A program made the position numbers and the translations under genes. Below, in pieces: positions 1-38,090 of a DNA stretch of 64,000 nt. The DNA comes from a virus. Location: positions 64,001 to 128,000 of the IMG/VR virus record IMGVR_UViG_3300036791_001907, one strand, 5' to 3'. How positions within the stretch are numbered: position 1 is the first letter of the stretch; the number at the start of each line of letters is the position of its first letter. A model generated the notes under the pieces. It was not told the DNA's origin, made no database searches, and saw only the letters and a list, made by a program, of their open reading frames with translations.

Positions 1-275
1 TGATCAACGCCATCCGGGTCACCGTTTACGTGGTGGCGAAGCCCAAGGGGCGGGTCAAGCAGCTGCTGCCGGCCTATGTCCGGCTGAAGAACCCCGCCGG
101 TCGGCGCACCTTCGTCGCAGCGACCATCGCGACGGCAACGCCCCGGCGCGCAGAGACGCTGGCGGAGACCATCATTCGGTATGCACACATGGCGACTCGC
201 GATCGCGCGCTCGGGCTCACCGAGCTGGATCCGCTGTTCGACGTGATTGATAAGTTGAAGAAGCGGTACGGCTGA
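1..275 (+). CDS. 5'-truncated hypothetical protein directly upstream of the pentamer array (possible array-associated accessory protein)
   Basis: Frame is open from the window start (..INAIRVTVYVVAKPKGRVKQLLPAYVRLK..TELDPLFDVIDKLKKRYG*). The stop at 273-275 abuts motif copy 1. The LINAIRV...ELDPLFDVID pattern resembles, from memory, phage proteins found next to such pentamer tracts. Confidence 0.7.
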   Translation, partial: INAIRVTVYVVAKPKGRVKQLLPAYVRLKNPAGRRTFVAATIATATPRRAETLAETIIRYAHMATRDRALGLTELDPLFDVIDKLKKRYG

Positions 276-276
276 T

Positions 277-316
277 GCAGCAGACCGACGGTCGGCGGTA
301 TATCCGGTGGTGACGG
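277..316 (+). repeat. Pseudoknot motif copy 1
   Basis: GCAGCAG-ACCG-ACG-GTCGG-CGGT-ATAT-CCGGT-GGTGACGG. Confidence 0.85.
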
Positions 317-668
317 GAAGGCGGCAGAGATCCGGCTTCGTTCGCTCCGGCGTGCGACGCTGGGGCCCGGCAGCCAAGGACCGGCGTGGCAAGCCGCGTT
401 CTGGCTTGCAGCGTCTAGGTTCGGCCGCAGCGGAGGGCCAGGCCGGGGTAGTGTTCGGCTCCGCAGGTCGAGGCTTGTCCCGGTTCGGCAGCTCGGGTGC
501 GTCGTGCTGCGAATAGGCATCGTGAGGCTGGCTTCGGCAGCGTCAGGCAGCGGCGGAGGGCCTTGTCCGGGTGTGGCATTCGGCGGCTTGGCGTGCCCAG
601 GTGAGCCGAGGCCGTACAGGTTAGGCGGGATGCGCCCGGCACTGCAATGGCCTGCTCCGGCTGGCCGG

Positions 669-711
669 GCAGTAAAGAACCGACGGCCAGCGGTATATCT
701 GGCGGTGACGG
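669..711 (+). repeat. Pseudoknot motif copy 2
   Basis: GCAGTAAAGA-ACCG-ACG-GCCAG-CGGT-ATAT-CTGGC-GGTGACGG. Confidence 0.9.
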
Positions 712-1040
712 CAGTTCAGGAGCGGATGGGACGGCCCAGGCAGGGCTTGTTACGGCCCGCCGGGACTCGTTTCGGCGCCGCCGTATTGGTCTGGCTTCAC
801 ATGCCGTGGCGACGTGAGCCGCGGTCAGCACAGGAGCGGCAGCGATGGTTCGTCTAGTCTACACAAGGCAGGCCCAGGCAGCCGGAGGTATGCCCAGCAG
901 GGCCATGGCCGTACAGGACAGCAGGGGTAGGTAAAGCACGGGCAAGCCGTGCCGGGTCCCGGCAGCGAAGCCGAGTTCCGGTGTGGTGCGCCGTGGTGGC
1001 GTCCGTCACGGCGGGCCATGTCGCGGCTAGTCAAGTCGCG

Positions 1041-1083
1041 GCAGCAAAAAACCTATGGCCACAGGTATATGTGGTGGTGATGG
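1041..1083 (+). repeat. Pseudoknot motif copy 3
   Basis: GCAGCAAAAA-ACCT-ATG-GCCAC-AGGT-ATAT-GTGGT-GGTGATGG. Confidence 0.9.
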
Positions 1084-1624
1084 CAGGCAGGGCAAGCCCT
1101 GTCACGTCGCGGTGCGGCATGTCCCGGCAGCGTAGGCTTGGTCAGATACGCGAAGTCCTGGTACGCCGCGGCCGGCACAGGTTAGCTGCGGCCAGGCAGC
1201 ATAGGCTCGTCCCAGCAAAGGCAGGTCGCGACAGGGCTGGCCGCGGTTCGGCAGCATTGGCTGGGAAAGCCCAGCCCAGGTTCGCCGCGCCACGCAGGGC
1301 TTCGGCGGGGCGGGGCAGTCAAGGATCGGCATGGCGTGTCTAGCCACGGTCCGTCATGGCGAGTCGTGCTGCGGCAGCGGCGGAGAGCCGAGCCGTGGTG
1401 GCAACTGGTGGGCCAAGCTACGTTGTGGCGACGCCGGATAGGTATGGCATGCCCCGGACTGCCATGGCGAGTCATGGCGGGCCATGGCGAGCCGTGGCCG
1501 CGAAGGAGTGGCCGCCCGGCGTTCGTCCGGCGTTGGTTGGTCTAGGTAGGGACGCGTCAGCCGGGGCAGTCATGGTTTGGCGCGGCTTGCCTGGTCGTGC
1601 CACGGCAAGCGATGCCAGGGATGG

Positions 1625-1667
1625 GCAGCAAAAAACCCATGGTCACGGGTATATGTGACGGTGATGG
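1625..1667 (+). repeat. Pseudoknot motif copy 4
   Basis: GCAGCAAAAA-ACCC-ATG-GTCAC-GGGT-ATAT-GTGAC-GGTGATGG. Confidence 0.9.
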
Positions 1668-1936
1668 TGCGGCAGCTCGGCCCTGCCATGATGGGGCATG
1701 TCGAGCCGCGGCCAGCAGCGCAATGGTAGCGCTGGTGTTCCCAAGCTTGGCCTGGGTAAGTCAAGCGCTGGCCAGCCGGGGCAGCGAAGGTGAGGCTAGA
1801 TCTATCGAGCCTAGCGCTGTCATGTGCTGGTGAGCCGGGGTGAGCCTCGGTACGGTATCGCCGCTCTGGCGGCGTTAGTCGTGACATCGAAAGCTGTGGT
1901 ATGCCGAGTCGAGGTCAGACAGCAGAGGAGGTGTGA

Positions 1937-2152
1937 ATGATCGGACCCAAGTGCGAGTGCCGAAAGCCGACCTTTCCGTCTGAAGACGAACAGTCCTGGC
2001 TGTGCATGAACCCGGAGTGTGCGGGCTTCCAGCAGGTCTACTGCGAGTTGACGCCGGCAGACCTGGCGCTCATCGCCAAGCTGAAGGCGCTGGCCAATGG
2101 CCACTGGCAGCGTGTTGCAAAAACCCGAAAACTCCGCGGTACCAGGAAGTGA
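1937..2152 (+). CDS. Small Cys-rich hypothetical protein inserted inside the array
   Basis: Strong RBS (AGGAGGTG) before the ATG; CxC...CxxxxC; pentamer periodicity is absent over this interval. Confidence 0.65.
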   Translation: MIGPKCECRKPTFPSEDEQSWLCMNPECAGFQQVYCELTPADLALIAKLKALANGHWQRVAKTRKLRGTRK

Positions 2153-2225
2153 TGAACGGTTCGGCAGCCGCGGTGAGGTGCGACCGGGTTCGTCCAGCGA
2201 TGGCGGACCTTGGTGTGGCATCACA

Positions 2226-2265
2226 GCAGTAAACCTATGGCCACAGGTATAAGTGGCGGTGATGG
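2226..2265 (+). repeat. Pseudoknot motif copy 5
   Basis: GCAGTAA-ACCT-ATG-GCCAC-AGGT-ATAA-GTGGC-GGTGATGG. Confidence 0.9.
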
Positions 2266-2729
2266 AATGGCAGCATCGGACGGGCTCGGACGGGCCATGA
2301 CGGGCCGGGTTAGCTGTGCCGCGTCAAGGCAGTACTGGCTAGGTTTTTCAGGGCATGCTCTGGTGCGCCTGGTCACGGCCGTCTAGGTGAGGAGTCGCGT
2401 GCAGCGGCTTGCCACGGCCAGTTCTGTCGAGGCAAGCCGAGGCCGTCAAGGTGCGGCCAGGCAAGTAATGCAGGGATCGGGCTGGCTATGGTCCGGCCGC
2501 AATGGCAAGGTTAGTTGCGGCTGGTACCGGCGGGGCGAGCCCTGCTGTGGTATGGCCGTAACGGTAGTCCGCGGAGCGCCATGGACGGCCCCGCTCAGGC
2601 TGGCCAAGGTCGGCCGAGGCAGTCTTGCAAGGGATCGTCCAGCCTGGTTGTGCCATGGCCAGGCAGGGGAGCAGAGGTGTGTTCTGGCACCCTGTGATCT
2701 GGCCGGCCAAGTCACGGCAAGGCCGGGCA

Positions 2730-2769
2730 GCAGTAAACCCATGGTCGCGGGTATATGCGACGGTGATGG
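2730..2769 (+). repeat. Pseudoknot motif copy 6
   Basis: GCAGTAA-ACCC-ATG-GTCGC-GGGT-ATAT-GCGAC-GGTGATGG. Confidence 0.9.
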
Positions 2770-3122
2770 AAGGGCAGCCGTGGACAGCAGGGTTATGATG
2801 CGCTGCGCAAGGGCTGGTCCTGGCAGGCCAAGGATCGGCAGGAGAGCACAGGTCCGGTCTGCATAGTAGTGGCGAGACCTACCATGTCGAGCCGGGTTTC
2901 GGCAGCAATGCGAAGGTGAGCCTTGCCGGGGCGGCCGTAGCTGTGGCAGTGTAGTCGAGTCGTGGCAAGCCTAGTCCGGCATAGTTGGGCTCTGGTCCGG
3001 TCCGGCAGCAGAAGTGTGTCTTGGTCCGCCGCGTCGCGACGCGGTGGGATCCGGCAGTAATGGTGCGGCTAGTCATGGCGCCGCGAGCCGCGCTGTGTCA
3101 TGTCATGATCTGGCTAGGCCGG

Positions 3123-3165
3123 ACAGCAAAAAACCGATGGCCAGCGGTATATCTGGTGGTGACGG
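3123..3165 (+). repeat. Pseudoknot motif copy 7
   Basis: ACAGCAAAAA-ACCG-ATG-GCCAG-CGGT-ATAT-CTGGT-GGTGACGG. Confidence 0.9.
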
Positions 3166-3474
3166 GAAGCATCGGCAGCGACGGCAAGCCGTGGTGTGGT
3201 ATGCCCGGCTCCGCCAAGCTACGGCAGCAGTGGGCAGGCTGGGCAGGTTTTGCTCCGTCGTGTCGAGTGTTGGTAAGGCAGCCATGGTGTGGCCCGGCGC
3301 GTCATGTCGCGTCGTCCTTTGCGCCGGCATGGCGTGGCCGCTGTGGCAAGACACCCTTAGTCATGATGGGGCCGGGCGGGCACCTGTTTGCTGCGCCGAG
3401 TCGTGGCAGTGACGCAGTGGTGTGTTGTGCCCCGGCCTGCCCCGGCGAGTCCTGTCATCGTGGGCAGCGCTGAG

Positions 3475-3517
3475 GCAGCAAAAAACCCATGGCCACGGGT
3501 ATATGTGGCGGTGATGG
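3475..3517 (+). repeat. Pseudoknot motif copy 8
   Basis: GCAGCAAAAA-ACCC-ATG-GCCAC-GGGT-ATAT-GTGGC-GGTGATGG. Confidence 0.9.
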
Positions 3518-3840
3518 ACAGCCCCGCGCTGGCCGGCTTTGGTCAGCCATGCAGAGCTGCGGCAGCAGAGGTGAGGCGTGACCAGCACAGCCGGGGTACG
3601 GTTCGCTGTGCCCTGGTTAGGCAGGTGGGTCATGGTTCGCGATGGCGCGTTGAGCCTTGCCATGGTGAGGCAGCAATGGATCGGCGGGCTGTGGCACGGC
3701 AAGCCTGGGTCGGATCCGCTGCGGCAGCGGAGGTGCGGAACGCCATGGACCGGCAGGGTGGGCCAGGGTGGGCCGAGCCACGGCAGCACGGGTGTGCCGT
3801 GTCCGGCCTAGTCAAGGACGGATGAGCCGCGCACTGTGGA

Positions 3841-3870
3841 AGGGGGCGTGGTCTTCGGGCCACGCCCCCT
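3841..3870 (+). terminator. Hairpin closing the array (cUUCGg tetraloop), between convergent units
   Basis: AGGGGGCGTGGTC-TTCG-GGCCACGCCCCCT; 13-bp stem with one G.U on the + strand; no long U tract. Confidence 0.65.
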
Positions 3871-3872
3871 CC

Positions 3873-4079
3873 TTATACCTTCACGCCGGCGAGCAACTCG
3901 AAGACCCCGAATGCCTTACACAAAAAGATGATCAGAACCAGGGCCAGCAGACCATAAGCGAGGTGAATACACCACCGCGGGTAAGCCAGCCTCGATCCCA
4001 GCTGCTGATCGGCGAAGGCGACCAGCGCGCAGGCGATGATGAACGCCAGAACGGCCAGCAAAACGCCGAGCAAACTCAC
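3873..4079 (-). CDS. Small two-TM membrane protein (holin-like size)
   Basis: Two hydrophobic segments; start overlaps the stop of the upstream gene. Confidence 0.6.
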   Translation of the reverse strand: MSLLGVLLAVLAFIIACALVAFADQQLGSRLAYPRWCIHLAYGLLALVLIIFLCKAFGVFELLAGVKV

Positions 4080-5251
4080 GGTGCACCTCCCTGACGATGA
4101 GTCGCGGCCAGGGCCCGCAGATCCTCACGAGTGAACCCCGTCCGGACGCCAGCTTCCTTGACGAAGGGACGAATGGACCGATCCGCGCACAGTGTATCGA
4201 AGATCCGGGCATCGCCCAGTGGCAGCGTCGGAATGATCTCAGCCATCTTGGTCGCATCAACATGGATGCCATCGCTGTCGATGGCGTTGGCCAGCTCATC
4301 ACCCATGTAACTTCGCACGTCACGAATTCGCAACCGGCCCAGGTCATCGCGGTTGTAGACCGAGCCGCTGGTCGTCGAGACGTGCTGGTCGGCCAGCGCC
4401 GAGGCCACCTTCCGTGTGATCCTGAAAAGCAGGTCCTCGGCCCGCGGCACGGCGGCGGAATATTCACGAATGCGCAGCATCCGGTCGAGCTGATCGATGA
4501 CCTCGGCAGTCTTGATCAGCCGGTCAGGCGCGCGGGACTTGGCCGGATCCTTGGTGATCATGTCGGCCATCCTCTCCAGCTCGCCGGCGAGATCAGGATC
4601 CCGGGCGCGCGCGATCTTGGCGCGATCGCGAACCAGCTGCGCCGCCTCGCTTGCCGAGCAACCGCCGAAGCCGGCCATCCGTTCCAATGGTTCGTCCAGG
4701 CTGCCGAGCGCAGCCCCGTACCGGGCGGCCTTCTGGAGGATCGCCCGCGCCATCTTCAAACGGTCCGGGAAGGTGAACTCATCTCGCCATTTGTGGATGT
4801 ATTCGGCGGCGGCCTTGACCTCGAGCGCATTCCGCAGCGGCAGCTGCCGCTCATTCCCCTGGATCCAGGCAAAGTCCGAGTCAGGCAGCTTCGCCAGGTC
4901 ATCATGGGCCATCGCCGCGGCCTTCTCGCGCAGCGCATCGGCCTGGGACTCGATCCCCCAGAAGCGGGCGGCTTCCGTGAGCCGGCCCTCGATCTCCGCA
5001 GCCTCGCGCTGCGGCAGTCCGGCTTTCTTGTCGACGAAGAACGCTGCTGACAGCCATGTCGCAGCTTTTGTATGCATGGGATAGCGGCGGTGCCGCTGGT
5101 CGGCAAACAGATGCGGCAGGGTTGACTCTGGCCCACAGAGCTGTTCGACGCTAGCCTCTTTAACAAAGGCTGGTGCCTCGAAGAGCTGGACCAGTCGGTA
5201 TGTTTCCTGACCGCCAAGGTCGGTCGTCTGATCGAGGATCGGTTGTGGCAC
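4076..5251 (-). CDS. Phage hypothetical protein with two DUF6582-like motifs (possible head assembly/scaffold protein)
   Basis: GTG at 5251 with AAGGAGG RBS; internal repeats LPHLFAD..RRYPMHTKAA and LPDSDFAW..RQLPLRNALEVKAA. Confidence 0.6.
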   Translation of the reverse strand: MPQPILDQTTDLGGQETYRLVQLFEAPAFVKEASVEQLCGPESTLPHLFADQRHRRYPMHTKAATWLSAAFFVDKKAGLPQREAAEIEGRLTEAARFWGIESQADALREKAAAMAHDDLAKLPDSDFAWIQGNERQLPLRNALEVKAAAEYIHKWRDEFTFPDRLKMARAILQKAARYGAALGSLDEPLERMAGFGGCSASEAAQLVRDRAKIARARDPDLAGELERMADMITKDPAKSRAPDRLIKTAEVIDQLDRMLRIREYSAAVPRAEDLLFRITRKVASALADQHVSTTSGSVYNRDDLGRLRIRDVRSYMGDELANAIDSDGIHVDATKMAEIIPTLPLGDARIFDTLCADRSIRPFVKEAGVRTGFTREDLRALAATHRQGGAP

Positions 5252-36520: not shown

Positions 36521-37197
36521 TCGTTACGCAGCGTATCCGCGGACTGCCGGTGGCGGCGGAGCTTCGGCGCGATGAACGCAGTGGCGGCCGCCGTCACAGG
36601 CAATTCGACATACGCGGCGATCCGTGCCACCGTGTCGTCCGGGTTGTCGATGGCCCGGTCGTAGTCGATCCAGAGCGCCGGGGGGATACCGTGGGATTCC
36701 AGCTCGTCGAGCGTGATCAGCCGGCGGCGGGAATACTCCCGGATGATCAGGGCACATTCCGCCGGTGAGAAGTAGCGGCGCGCGGCGCCCAAGCTCGTGA
36801 TCATCGTGTCCGTATCACGATCGGTCACGATCACCCGGACGGGATGGTTCACCGTGGCTGCGAAGTGCGCGGCGTAGTAGCAAAGCTCCGGATCTTTAAC
36901 ACCCCAGCAGGGGCGTTGTTCGCAGGCCCGGATCAGCCGGATGTACCGCAGCATGTCGGTCGGCTCCGGCGTGCATTCCCAGGGGGGCAGTCGGAGCCGG
37001 GCACGCACCGGCCGTCGCTCGTAATGCCGCGACCAGGAGCGATGCAGGCAGCGGAACCGGATGTCCTCGAAGTAGCCCAGCGGATTGGCGGCGTCGGGAG
37101 ACCGGGACGGCCCCATGTCGACGCCCAGATGATGGAGAATGCCGGCCACCATGCTCGAACCGCTCCGCGGCACCGGCAGCACCAGGACACATAGCAA
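36493..37197 (-). CDS. Sulfotransferase family protein
   Basis: PAPS-binding VLVLPVPRSGSSMV, NPLGYFED, WGVKDP, YDRAIDNP. Confidence 0.8.
   Translation of the reverse strand: MLCVLVLPVPRSGSSMVAGILHHLGVDMGPSRSPDAANPLGYFEDIRFRCLHRSWSRHYERRPVRARLRLPPWECTPEPTDMLRYIRLIRACEQRPCWGVKDPELCYYAAHFAATVNHPVRVIVTDRDTDTMITSLGAARRYFSPAECALIIREYSRRRLITLDELESHGIPPALWIDYDRAIDNPDDTVARIAAYVELPVTAAATAFIAPKLRRHRQSADTLRNDQGLTTLTT
36522..36538. promoter_or_regulatory. 17-bp palindromic site, copy C (degenerate)
   Basis: CGTTACGCAGCGTATCC after stop 36520. Confidence 0.5.
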
Positions 37198-37198
37198 C

Positions 37199-37210
37199 GG
37201 AGGATCCTCC
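37199..37210. promoter_or_regulatory. Palindromic bidirectional Shine-Dalgarno
   Basis: GGAGGATCCTCC; GGAGG lies 8 nt before ATG 37212 (+) and 8 nt before TTG 37197 (-). Confidence 0.6.
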
Positions 37211-37211
37211 C

Positions 37212-38090
37212 ATGAGGCATGCGGTCTTCACGATCGTCCAGGACGAGCCGGTCTTCTTCCCGCTCTGGTACCGGTACTATAGCCGGCACTACAAGCCGCA
37301 GAATATCTACGTGCTCTACCATCCCCTCTTCGAGGAAGAGTCGGGCGGCGAGCCGACGTGGCTCAAGGTGCCACTTTTCAATGATCCGAATACCCGGACC
37401 TTCCGCGATATGAACATCGTGCGGGTCTTCCGCGAGAAGTCGTTCGACCATACCTGGCTCCGCGCGCAGGTCGAGCAGTTCGCGGCGTTCCTGCTCGGCT
37501 CCCATGATACGGTGACATTCACCGAGGTCGATGAGATCCTGGCGCTGGATCCGTACAGGGTCAATGATGGCAGTCTGATGCGATGGCTCGCCATTTGGTG
37601 TCGCCAGCGCCGACCCGCGGTCCGTGCCACGGGGTACGAGGTTGTGCACCAATTCGATGACGAGCCCGATCTGGATCTCGACGAGATCCAGTACAAGGCC
37701 GGCCGGGTGCTCAGAGACCGGGGGTGGTGGTACCCCTCGGAGATCTACTCCAAGACCCTGATCTGGACCGCGCCGCCGCAGTGGGACAATGGGTTTCACG
37801 AAGCCTTTATCCCTGACGGCGCCGGCGCCGTGATGCCTCTGGTGTTGGGCCGGGAGCCTGAGCTGCTCCTTCTGCACCTGCACAAGGTCGACTATTGCGT
37901 TGCCGCGGCGCGGCTGCGGCGGACCGCGGCACGGGACTGGAACAAGCCGGACACGCGGGATCGGGTCGGCATCCAGAACCGGTTCACGAGCGAAGCGCAG
38001 CTCAAGAATTGGTGGTACAAGAGTATCGATCATCCGGCAGCCAATGCGCCGCTGGTCCAGATCCCGGACGATATCCGGTCCATCATCTGA
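37212..38090 (+). CDS. Glycosyltransferase family 2-like protein
   Basis: AVFTIVQDE..FFPLW.RYY, FTEVDEIL, YSKTLI, LLLLHLH. Confidence 0.7.
   Translation: MRHAVFTIVQDEPVFFPLWYRYYSRHYKPQNIYVLYHPLFEEESGGEPTWLKVPLFNDPNTRTFRDMNIVRVFREKSFDHTWLRAQVEQFAAFLLGSHDTVTFTEVDEILALDPYRVNDGSLMRWLAIWCRQRRPAVRATGYEVVHQFDDEPDLDLDEIQYKAGRVLRDRGWWYPSEIYSKTLIWTAPPQWDNGFHEAFIPDGAGAVMPLVLGREPELLLLHLHKVDYCVAAARLRRTAARDWNKPDTRDRVGIQNRFTSEAQLKNWWYKSIDHPAANAPLVQIPDDIRSII

What the first reader, a model, noticed from the sequence alone, without database searches (positions are those of the whole stretch)
277..3870. 3.6-kb array of GGY-NN pentamer tracts: candidate programmable guide-RNA array with a gapped code (VIPR-like)
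Seen in sequence: the region has no credible long ORF and shows 5-nt periodicity, with a semi-conserved triplet (GGC/GGT, degenerate GCC/GTC/CGC) alternating with a freely varying dinucleotide. Runs of about 8-13 pentamers are delimited by GGCAG and grouped into 350-600 nt blocks by a conserved motif. The array closes with a UUCG hairpin. The variable positions differ in every unit, so this is not a simple microsatellite. From memory, this matches the recently reported phage VIPR systems (RAMP/Cas7-like protein plus GGY/NN RNAs that read DNA non-contiguously); that recollection needs verifying. Inference: dozens of guides are encoded here. If each NN pairs with 2 of every 3 target bases (376-425 reads AAn CCn GTn AAn GCn CTn TTn GCn TAn TCn), targeting could tolerate third-position codon changes.
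Basis: partly seen in the sequence, partly recalled or inferred. Interest (0 to 1): 0.95.

Follow-up and report, generated by a model that had tools for sequence, protein, structure and literature searches.

The report
Giant phage VIPR guide-RNA array
The 3.6-kb stretch with a five-base rhythm is a real guide-RNA array of the VIPR system, a CRISPR-related, phage-borne RNA-guided DNA silencer described in 2026; with about 50 guides it is unusually large, but it is a new example of a known kind.

Summary
Observation confirmed and first reading supported. Window 277-3870 has strong 5-nt periodicity (z about 10) and no coding signal. It parses into about 49 units of 8-16 pentamers (G-B-Y scaffold plus a free NN). 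Most units end in a truncated GGCA/GGCC followed by G, the 1-nt "staggered" grammar published for VIPR arrays. The units form eight blocks, each led by a conserved motif that I show to be an H-type pseudoknot with compensatory changes. A strong UUCG hairpin closes the array.

Just upstream of the window lie 12 more guides, a 303-aa Cas7-fold gene that matches SUSP1 Vipr (profile E 1e-13, Z 10.6 to Csm3) and a candidate accessory gene.

NN usage matches sense codon positions 1-2 (r 0.76). One guide (788-841) spells LLIVDEAHHA, helicase motif II. All three of its exact gapped matches in viral contigs lie in frame on that motif. Five other guides gave no exact match, so natural targets and host remain unknown. 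No RNA data exist.

Verdict: a new, very large member of the VIPR kind. It has a pseudoknot at the head of each multi-guide block and a degenerate second scaffold base. This scan has already noted this locus from overlapping windows, and VIPR arrays in at least 125 other genomes.

The parts
1..275 (+). 3' part of the candidate vipr-accessory (vap) gene (P0001, 177 aa; L001 9742-10275). It follows vipr (P0005, L001 8755-9666, which is window -1245 to -334).
   Evidence: Translation. Coding-like GC3 of 0.84. No Pfam family; PHROG 15946 of unknown function. The nearest atlas clusters are viral hypothetical proteins.
273..325 (+). Leader 1. The H-type pseudoknot core is at 284-308. It is followed by GGUGAY, a short stub and a GGCA|G boundary.
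   Evidence: Row m1 of alignment A3. Pseudoknot pairs counted.
329..668 (+). Guide block 1: 6 units of 9-13 pentamers.
   Evidence: Parses.
668..720 (+). Leader 2 (pseudoknot core 679-703).
714..1043 (+). Guide block 2: 6 units. It includes guide 20 at 788-841, whose NN string CT TT AT GT GA GA GC CA CA GC reads L[FL][IM]V[DE][DE]A[HQ][HQ]A.
   Evidence: Three exact 1-nt-skip matches in viral contigs, all in frame on LLIVDEAHHA of ResIII/DEAD helicase genes.
1040..1092 (+). Leader 3 (pseudoknot core 1051-1075).
1086..1627 (+). Guide block 3: about 11 units, some short or degenerate.
1624..1676 (+). Leader 4 (pseudoknot core 1635-1659).
1675..1922 (+). Guide block 4: 4 units.
1937..2152 (+). 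Small gene inside the array (P0004, 71 aa, four Cys; GAGGAGG ribosome-binding site 7 nt upstream). It is an orphan of unknown role.
   Evidence: GC1,2,3 of 0.56, 0.49, 0.76 is coding-like. No family and no homologue.
2167..2226 (+). One guide unit directly after the small gene, with no leader of its own.
2222..2274 (+). Leader 5 (pseudoknot core 2233-2257).
2273..2730 (+). Guide block 5: 8 units.
2726..2778 (+). Leader 6 (pseudoknot core 2737-2761).
2777..3120 (+). Guide block 6: 6 units.
3122..3174 (+). Leader 7 (pseudoknot core 3133-3157). Over about 50 nt it is nearly identical to the leader just upstream of vipr, after which the guides differ.
3178..3477 (+). Guide block 7: 5 units.
3474..3526 (+). 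Leader 8 (pseudoknot core 3485-3509).
3516..3835 (+). Guide block 8: 6 units.
3838..3872 (.). G+C-rich hairpin with a UUCG loop that closes the array. It is a likely terminator, placed between the array and the convergent minus-strand genes.
   Evidence: MFE of -32.1 kcal/mol. Sequence.

Best explanation
Window 277-3870 is the main vrRNA array of a VIPR system carried by a large uncultured soil phage.

Shown:
- The neighbouring gene is a Vipr-family, Cas7-fold RAMP.
- The array is plus-strand, non-coding and 5-nt periodic. A conserved G-B-Y scaffold alternates with a free NN.
- About 49 units of 8-16 pentamers are separated by a one-base register slip (GGCA|G). This is the published staggered architecture.
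- Each of the eight blocks opens with a co-varying H-type pseudoknot.

Inferred from the published SUSP1 and P. fulva work:
- The array is transcribed with vipr and vap.
- One Vipr protomer binds each scaffold triplet, so that a filament presents the NN bases.
- The NN bases pair with double-stranded DNA at two of every three positions, skipping the codon wobble base.
- Binding silences transcription of rival mobile elements.

My own inference:
- The register slip ends each filament and marks the processing site.
- The pseudoknot caps or nucleates each multi-guide block at its 5' end.
- At least some guides are aimed at conserved protein motifs, so that one guide covers many rivals.
For: Periodicity and genome-wide uniqueness.

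Grammar: 65 units and 655 pentamers; 51 units end in GGCA or GGCC followed by G; the modal length is 12 pentamers.

Non-coding: the array's ORFs have flat GC1=GC2=GC3 of about 0.65, against GC3 of 0.84-0.89 in real genes. There is no lag-3 signal.

Effector:
- P0005 against PDB 36pp SUSP1 Vipr gives E 7e-4. The clade profile gives 1.6e-5 and the 144-sequence family profile 1e-13, with the alignment running through the GxGDWR G-loop.
- The AlphaFold model has pLDDT 89.8.
- All top structural matches are Cas7/Csm3: Foldseek probability 1.0 and VIA-align Z 10.6 over residues 18-211.
- The family has 2806 representatives.

Phage context: terminase, DNA polymerase and ribonucleotide reductase; the record is a virus record.

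Leader pseudoknot: 11 copies, all in this locus and all on the plus strand. All 99 cells are paired, 4 of 9 pairs show compensatory changes, and 0 of 500 shuffles reach the observed score. The G-U pairs fit the plus strand only.

Code:
- NN usage correlates with sense codon positions 1-2 at r 0.76 and with their antisense at 0.00.
- Guide 20 has 3 exact hits, all in frame on helicase motif II.
- The phage's own helicase reads LFLGDEGHEL at that site.
- Upstream guide 12 matches the phage's own vipr codons in frame at 19 of 22 letters.

Published definition of the system.
Against: There is no direct evidence of transcription, processing or Vipr binding.

Only one of six guides scanned had exact matches in the collections, and I chose that guide after seeing that it spelled a known motif.

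The second scaffold base is nearly free, unlike canonical GGY.

The pseudoknot sits 5' of the multi-guide blocks, whereas in SUSP1 it caps the 3' end of each guide.

The accessory gene has no recognisable family.

DNA of close relatives could not be fetched, so neither the array nor the pseudoknot is tested across genomes. The pseudoknot's co-variation rests on paralogous copies within one genome.

The published preprint states that staggered arrays were not among the architectures confirmed by small-RNA sequencing.
Confidence: 0.88

Rival explanations
1. It is the same VIPR machinery, but the guides are aimed mainly at host genes, especially anti-phage defence genes such as restriction and defence helicases, rather than at rival phages or satellites. 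On this view the array is an RNA-guided anti-defence arsenal.
For: Guide 20 spells motif II of the ResIII/DEAD superfamily, a motif shared by restriction and defence helicases. Earlier notes of this scan on other genomes report guides that spell motifs of restriction or defence genes (not checked here).
Against: All three exact matches of guide 20 lie on viral contigs. The natural targets published for type II VIPR are satellites and prophages. The one bacterial-genome scan, with guide 30, found nothing. The host is unknown, so its genome could not be searched.
Confidence: 0.25
2. The array is not cut into separate vrRNAs. Each block is one long RNA on which the one-base register slips merely interrupt the Vipr filament, so that several guide filaments sit on one molecule headed by the pseudoknot.
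For: No tail, ribozyme or other known processing element separates the units; the Rfam scan at E up to 10 found none. The only recurring structured element heads whole blocks. Staggered arrays were not confirmed by small-RNA sequencing in the preprint.
Against: The legend of Fig. S18 in the preprint speaks of individual processed vrRNAs with 1-nt overlapping ends. The invariant GGCA|G or GGCC|G at unit ends looks like a cleavage motif.
Confidence: 0.25
3. The stretch is a decayed or selfish tandem repeat with no RNA-guide function, or it encodes a repetitive protein.
For: Stop-free frames of up to 162 codons exist in the array. No expression data are available.
Against: There is no lag-3 signal and GC1-3 is flat. 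The variable positions differ in every unit, while the scaffold and the unit ends are kept. A co-varying pseudoknot heads each block. The array lies beside a Vipr gene. The same grammar lies beside the Vipr homologue of a cultured mycobacteriophage.
Confidence: 0.03

Closest known systems
VIPR systems with staggered vrRNA arrays (bioRxiv 10.64898/2026.04.26.720920, main text and Fig. S18 legend)
   Same: A Vipr RAMP gene plus a second small gene in a phage. Pentamer repeats with a conserved triplet and a free NN. Units of 9-16 repeats. The end of one unit overlaps the start of the next by one base. No CRISPR repeats and no ribozymes.
   Different: The scale differs: about 49 guides here and about 61 in the locus, against a handful per locus in the described systems. 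The second scaffold base is nearly free (G-B-Y). A pseudoknot leader heads each block of 4-11 guides. Small genes are interspersed in the arrays. Whether the published staggered examples have such leaders could not be checked, because the figure is not held.
Type II VIPR of Escherichia phage SUSP1 (same preprint; structures in 10.64898/2026.04.26.720927, PDB 36pp)
   Same: The effector is homologous (family profile E 1e-13), and the G-loop GxGDWR is conserved. Guides use the GGY/NN principle. A small RNA pseudoknot is associated with the guides. The guide code is in frame with codons.
   Different: SUSP1 has four separate vrRNAs of about 100 nt, each with its own 3' pseudoknot tail; here the pseudoknot is 5' of multi-guide blocks and single guides have no tail. 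SUSP1 Vipr is 202 aa; P0005 is 303 aa, with a C-terminal extension of about 90 aa shared only by its close clade.
Cluster F mycobacteriophages (Cheoctovirus, e.g. Donkeykong gp48-gp49)
   Same: gp49 is a homologue of P0005 at about 30% identity. The stretch annotated as CDS gp48 is a run of GGC-NN pentamers in about 6 units of 9-12 that end in GGCA|G, the same stagger grammar.
   Different: It is a small array with a canonical GGC scaffold and no GGUAUAU-type leader. It lies in the immunity region of a 59-kb temperate phage. It is not described as VIPR in any paper I could search.
Class 1 CRISPR-Cas Cas7/Csm3 backbone filaments with crRNA
   Same: The RAMP fold is shared (Z 10.6 to Csm3). One protomer binds per short RNA segment, and pairing is interrupted periodically.
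   Different: There are no CRISPR repeats or spacers, no other cas genes in the locus and no adaptation module. The period is 5 nt with 2 read bases instead of 6 nt with 5. The target is double-stranded DNA, read with a skipped base.

Membership tests
VIPR system | An adjacent Vipr protein: a minimal RAMP (RRM core, G-loop, thumb) homologous to the described Vipr proteins. | tested here: met
   P0005 (L001 8755-9666) lies 0.6 kb upstream of the array. Its family profile matches PDB 36pp SUSP1 Vipr at E 1e-13, through the G-loop. The model has pLDDT 89.8. It aligns to Csm3 with Z 10.6, rmsd 3.8-4.1 A, over about 154 residues.
VIPR system | vrRNA: tandem pentamers with a conserved GGY (or related) triplet and hypervariable NN, at least 4 and typically 9-16 per guide. 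| tested here: met
   655 pentamers were parsed. Position 1 is G in 95%, position 3 is Y in 82%, and positions 4-5 are near uniform. Units have 8-16 pentamers, with a mode of 12. Position 2 is degenerate (G 42%), so the consensus is a related one, not strict GGY.
VIPR system | A viral or proviral genome and a minimal locus without a CRISPR array. | tested here: met
   Phage hallmark genes are present and the record is a virus record. Direct repeats in 1-4200 are only the 49-nt leader at 352-598-nt spacing. No CRISPR RNA family matched. The rest of the genome was not screened for cas genes.
VIPR system | A vap accessory gene of one of the six described families next to vipr. | tested here: inconclusive
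   A 177-aa gene follows vipr. It has no Pfam family and matches PHROG 15946 of unknown function. Its atlas neighbours are viral hypothetical proteins. The vap families are not available as sequences.
VIPR system | Guides match natural targets by the rule of NN plus one skipped base, with the skipped base on the codon wobble position. | tested here: inconclusive
   Guide 20 has 3 exact in-frame hits on helicase motif II. Guide 12 matches vipr in frame at 19 of 22 letters. NN usage correlates with codon positions 1-2 at r 0.76. However, five other guides have no exact hit, and the phage's own genome shows no excess over shuffled guides for any skip length.
VIPR system | vrRNAs are expressed, processed and co-purify with Vipr. 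| not testable with these tools
   Only the source DNA run holds the sequence, and no RNA run is listed.
Staggered vrRNA array (Fig. S18 architecture) | Successive vrRNAs share one base, and the end of one marks the start of the next. | tested here: met
   An unconstrained phase HMM resets the register by -1 after a 4-nt GGCA or GGCC at most unit ends. 51 of 65 units end this way.
Type II (SUSP1-like) vrRNA | Each guide carries an invariant 3' tail with a pseudoknot. | tested here: not met
   Single guides have no tail. The 11 pseudoknots each precede a run of guides, and three of them follow a protein gene with no guide before them.
Ribozyme-interspersed vrRNA array | Hammerhead ribozymes lie between guides. 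| tested here: not met
   The Rfam scan of 1-4200 at E up to 10 shows no hammerhead or other ribozyme family.
CRISPR array | Direct repeats of about 25-40 nt alternate with spacers of similar length. | tested here: not met
   No such repeats were found. The period is 5 nt.

The most novel reading that the evidence does not exclude
This locus may represent an undescribed way of organising VIPR guides. Multi-guide blocks are each headed by a 5' pseudoknot. Guide boundaries are set only by a one-base register slip, with no tail or ribozyme. The scaffold needs only G..Y. The roughly 60 guides may be written against conserved protein motifs such as the DEAH box, giving broad-spectrum silencing of rival phages or of host defence helicases. 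That would make it the largest natural non-CRISPR guide arsenal so far, and a template for compact multiplexed guide arrays.
Probability: 0.3. Interest if true: 0.7.

Novelty: new member of a known kind. Interest (0 to 1): 0.55.

Why it matters
VIPR was described only in 2026, and its staggered arrays have not been confirmed experimentally. This locus is a very large natural example, with about 49 guides in one 3.6-kb transcription unit and about 61 in the whole locus. It has clean unit boundaries and a co-varying leader pseudoknot. It can therefore show three things: how many guides can be packed without repeats or ribozymes, what defines guide ends, and whether guides are aimed at conserved protein motifs. 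The same boundary grammar in cultured cluster F mycobacteriophages offers a tractable system in which to test these points.

Tried and rejected
Related loci:
- The search for related loci with the clade alignment found no relative in viral, metagenome or genome contigs.
- The leader motif scanned in viral contigs gave only single chance hits.

Guide pattern scans:
- Exact 1-nt-skip scans gave 0 hits in viral contigs for guide 12, guide 24, guide 35, guide 62 and guide 33. Guide 30 gave 0 hits in genome contigs.
- Guide 12 in metagenome contigs gave 4 hits. All lie in low-GC DNA with stops, so they are chance.
- The other guides do not converge on the three helicase contigs.

Other searches:
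- The phage's own genome shows no excess of gapped matches over shuffled guides at skip 0, 1, 2 or 3.
- No RNA holder is listed among public runs.
- The single-sequence fold of P0005 was useless, with pLDDT 33.
- No sigma-70-type promoter was found in the arrays.

Rejected readings:
- A simple hairpin for the leader, because the pseudoknot explains a perfectly co-varying extra pair.
- A hammerhead or other Rfam ribozyme in the leader.
- The leader as a -10 promoter box, because it co-varies as RNA.
Full report
**Observation.**
The region is strongly 5-nt periodic. Base identity at lag 5 is 0.364 against 0.282 in shuffles (z 10.7), with equal peaks at lags 10 to 30 and none at lag 3. Coding parts of the same window show lag 3 instead.

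In the whole 161,481-bp genome (the window is bases 64001-128000), strong 5-nt periodicity occurs in two places only. One is genome 61001-62900. The other is 64201-68100, which is window 201-4100.

Stop-free frames inside the array have flat GC1=GC2=GC3 of about 0.65. Real genes of this phage have GC3 of 0.84-0.89. The array is therefore not coding.

**Anatomy.**
An unconstrained phase HMM and a unit parser give the same picture.
- In the window, 53 runs were parsed, 49 of them with 8-16 pentamers (mode 12).
- The two arrays upstream of the window hold 12 more.
- Over 655 pentamers, position 1 is G in 95% and position 3 is a pyrimidine in 82%. Position 2 is G 42, C 35, T 18 and A 5%. Positions 4-5 are near uniform.
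- 51 of 65 units end in a truncated GGCA or GGCC followed by G, which shifts the register by one base.

The units form eight blocks. Each block opens with a conserved leader (8 copies spaced 352-598 nt). Three more copies head the upstream arrays. The genome holds no other copy, and all 11 are on the plus strand.

The leader folds as an H-type pseudoknot. S1 is ACCN paired with NGGU. S2 is 5 bp. L1 is AYG and L3 is AUAU.
- All 99 cells of the 9 pairs form standard pairs.
- Four pairs show compensatory changes. One is an S1 pair that occurs as G-C, C-G and U-A.
- No shuffle out of 500, and no slid register, comes close.
- Its G-U pairs fit the plus strand only.

After the knot come GGUGAY, 0-2 stub pentamers and the first GGCA|G. 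A 12-bp G+C hairpin with a UUCG loop (-32 kcal/mol) closes the array at 3838-3872.

A small gene (1937-2152, 71 aa, four Cys, GAGGAGG ribosome-binding site, coding-like GC3) interrupts the array. It has no homologue.

**Surroundings.**
Fetching the DNA upstream of the window (L001) shows this order: array, two small genes, array, a 303-aa gene (P0005), a 177-aa gene (P0001, which ends at window 275), then the main array.

P0005 is a Vipr homologue.
- It matches PDB 36pp, "SUSP1 Vipr protein", at E 7e-4 alone, 1.6e-5 as a clade profile and 1e-13 as a 144-sequence family profile. The alignment runs through the G-loop GxGDWR.
- Its AlphaFold model has pLDDT 89.8.
- All top structural matches are Cas7-type RAMPs: Foldseek probability 1.0 and VIA-align Z 10.6 to Csm3 over residues 18-211.
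- The family is large, with 2806 representatives at E up to 1e-3. Only the closest clade shares the C-terminal extension of about 90 aa.

The genome is a phage, with terminase, DNA polymerase, ribonucleotide reductase and helicases. It has no close cultured relative.

**What is known.**
VIPR is described in four 2026 preprints. The published system has these features:
- a Vipr RAMP, usually one vap gene, and vrRNAs of 9-16 GGY/NN repeats;
- targets read as NN plus one skipped base, usually the codon wobble position, on either strand;
- transcriptional silencing of rival mobile elements;
- seven types, including "staggered arrays" whose vrRNAs overlap by one base, and ribozyme-interspersed arrays.

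The present array fits the staggered architecture. It lacks ribozymes (Rfam). It does not fit the type II layout, in which each guide has its own 3' pseudoknot tail.

**Tests of the code.**
- The 16 NN dinucleotide frequencies correlate at r 0.76 with sense codon positions 1-2 of the phage's own genes, and at 0.00 with their antisense. This is as expected if most guides copy coding strands and skip the wobble base.
- The phage's own genome shows no excess of gapped matches over order-shuffled guides at any skip length, in line with the published absence of self-targeting.
- The exception is upstream guide 12, outside the finding. It matches the phage's own vipr in frame (codons TISNAFPQKI) at 19 of 22 letters.
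- Decoding all guides showed that guide 20 (788-841) spells L[FL][IM]V[DE][DE]A[HQ][HQ]A. Its exact pattern has three matches in viral contigs. All are in frame on LLIVDEAHHA, motif II of ResIII/DEAD helicase genes.
- The phage's own distant homologue reads LFLGDEGHEL at that site, and the genome has no match.
- Guide 20 was chosen after its motif was seen, so the result is supportive rather than decisive. Five other guides gave no exact hit.

**Mechanism.**
Shown: the anatomy, the effector family and the pseudoknot.

Inferred from the published systems: co-transcription, one protomer per scaffold triplet, gapped pairing with DNA, and silencing.

My inference: the register slip ends each filament and marks the cut, and the pseudoknot caps or nucleates each block. 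A rival is that blocks stay uncut. Another rival is that the targets are host defence genes.

**Limits.**
The pseudoknot therefore rests on paralogues in one genome, and the host and natural targets stay unknown.

**Comparison and verdict.**
The scan already holds notes on this locus and on VIPR arrays in at least 125 other genomes.

The nearest cultured relatives are cluster F mycobacteriophages. In Donkeykong, the stretch annotated as CDS gp48 is a GGC-NN array of about 6 units ending in GGCA|G, next to the Vipr homologue gp49.

Verdict: a genuine, very large VIPR array and a new member of a known kind. The leader pseudoknots, the relaxed scaffold and the motif-directed guide are its points of interest.

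Noticed in passing
It is conserved at 45-87% identity in related large phage contigs. Its family profile aligns collinearly with the Vipr family, including the C-terminal G-rich loop (hhalign probability 79%, E 1.6e-5). It has no PDB or PHROG match and no pentamer array beside it. It may be a second, very divergent RAMP-like gene in the replication module.
   Followed up: partly
L002 1950-2315 (Mycobacterium phage Donkeykong NC_051648.1, about 36876-37241): The stretch annotated as CDS gp48 ('hypothetical protein') has flat GC1-3. It is a run of GGC-NN pentamers in about 6 units of 9-12 ending in GGCA|G, directly upstream of gp49, a homologue of this phage's Vipr at about 30% identity. Cluster F mycobacteriophages thus seem to carry a staggered VIPR array that is mis-annotated as a gene. 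No searchable paper links VIPR and mycobacteriophages.
   Followed up: partly
L001 8574-8628 (guide) and L001 8854-8885 (target in vipr); both upstream of the window: The guide just upstream of vipr matches the phage's own vipr coding sequence in frame (TISNAFPQKI) at 19 of 22 read letters. The misses are a TCG versus AG serine codon and the last dinucleotide.
   Followed up: partly
window 3133-3180 and L001 8529-8575: Leader 7 of the main array and the leader just upstream of vipr are nearly identical (one mismatch in about 50 nt) through the stub and the first pentamer. After that the guides are unrelated. This looks like block duplication followed by guide replacement, a hint at how arrays grow.
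   Followed up: no
window 1937-2152; L001 7707-7928 and 7941-8207: Small genes with good ribosome-binding sites sit between guide blocks. Two are Cys-rich, zinc-ribbon-like proteins (P0004, P0002) that are not similar to each other, and one (P0003) has no family. P0004 has no homologue in 5.8 billion proteins. Their role in the system, if any, is unknown.
   Followed up: partly
window 1635-1659 and 3485-3509, minus strand: Read on the minus strand, helix S1 of leaders 4 and 8 plus the A6 run looks like an intrinsic terminator (hairpin then a T run). It might stop antisense transcription coming from the convergent genes downstream of the array. Only the leaders with the A6 run show this.
   Followed up: no
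whole genome G000: IMG/VR classes the record as a provirus, 78% complete. The Vipr protein's cluster lists a longest contig of 227,700 bp, longer than the 161-kb record. Host flanks may therefore exist in the parent contig and could name the host.
   Followed up: no
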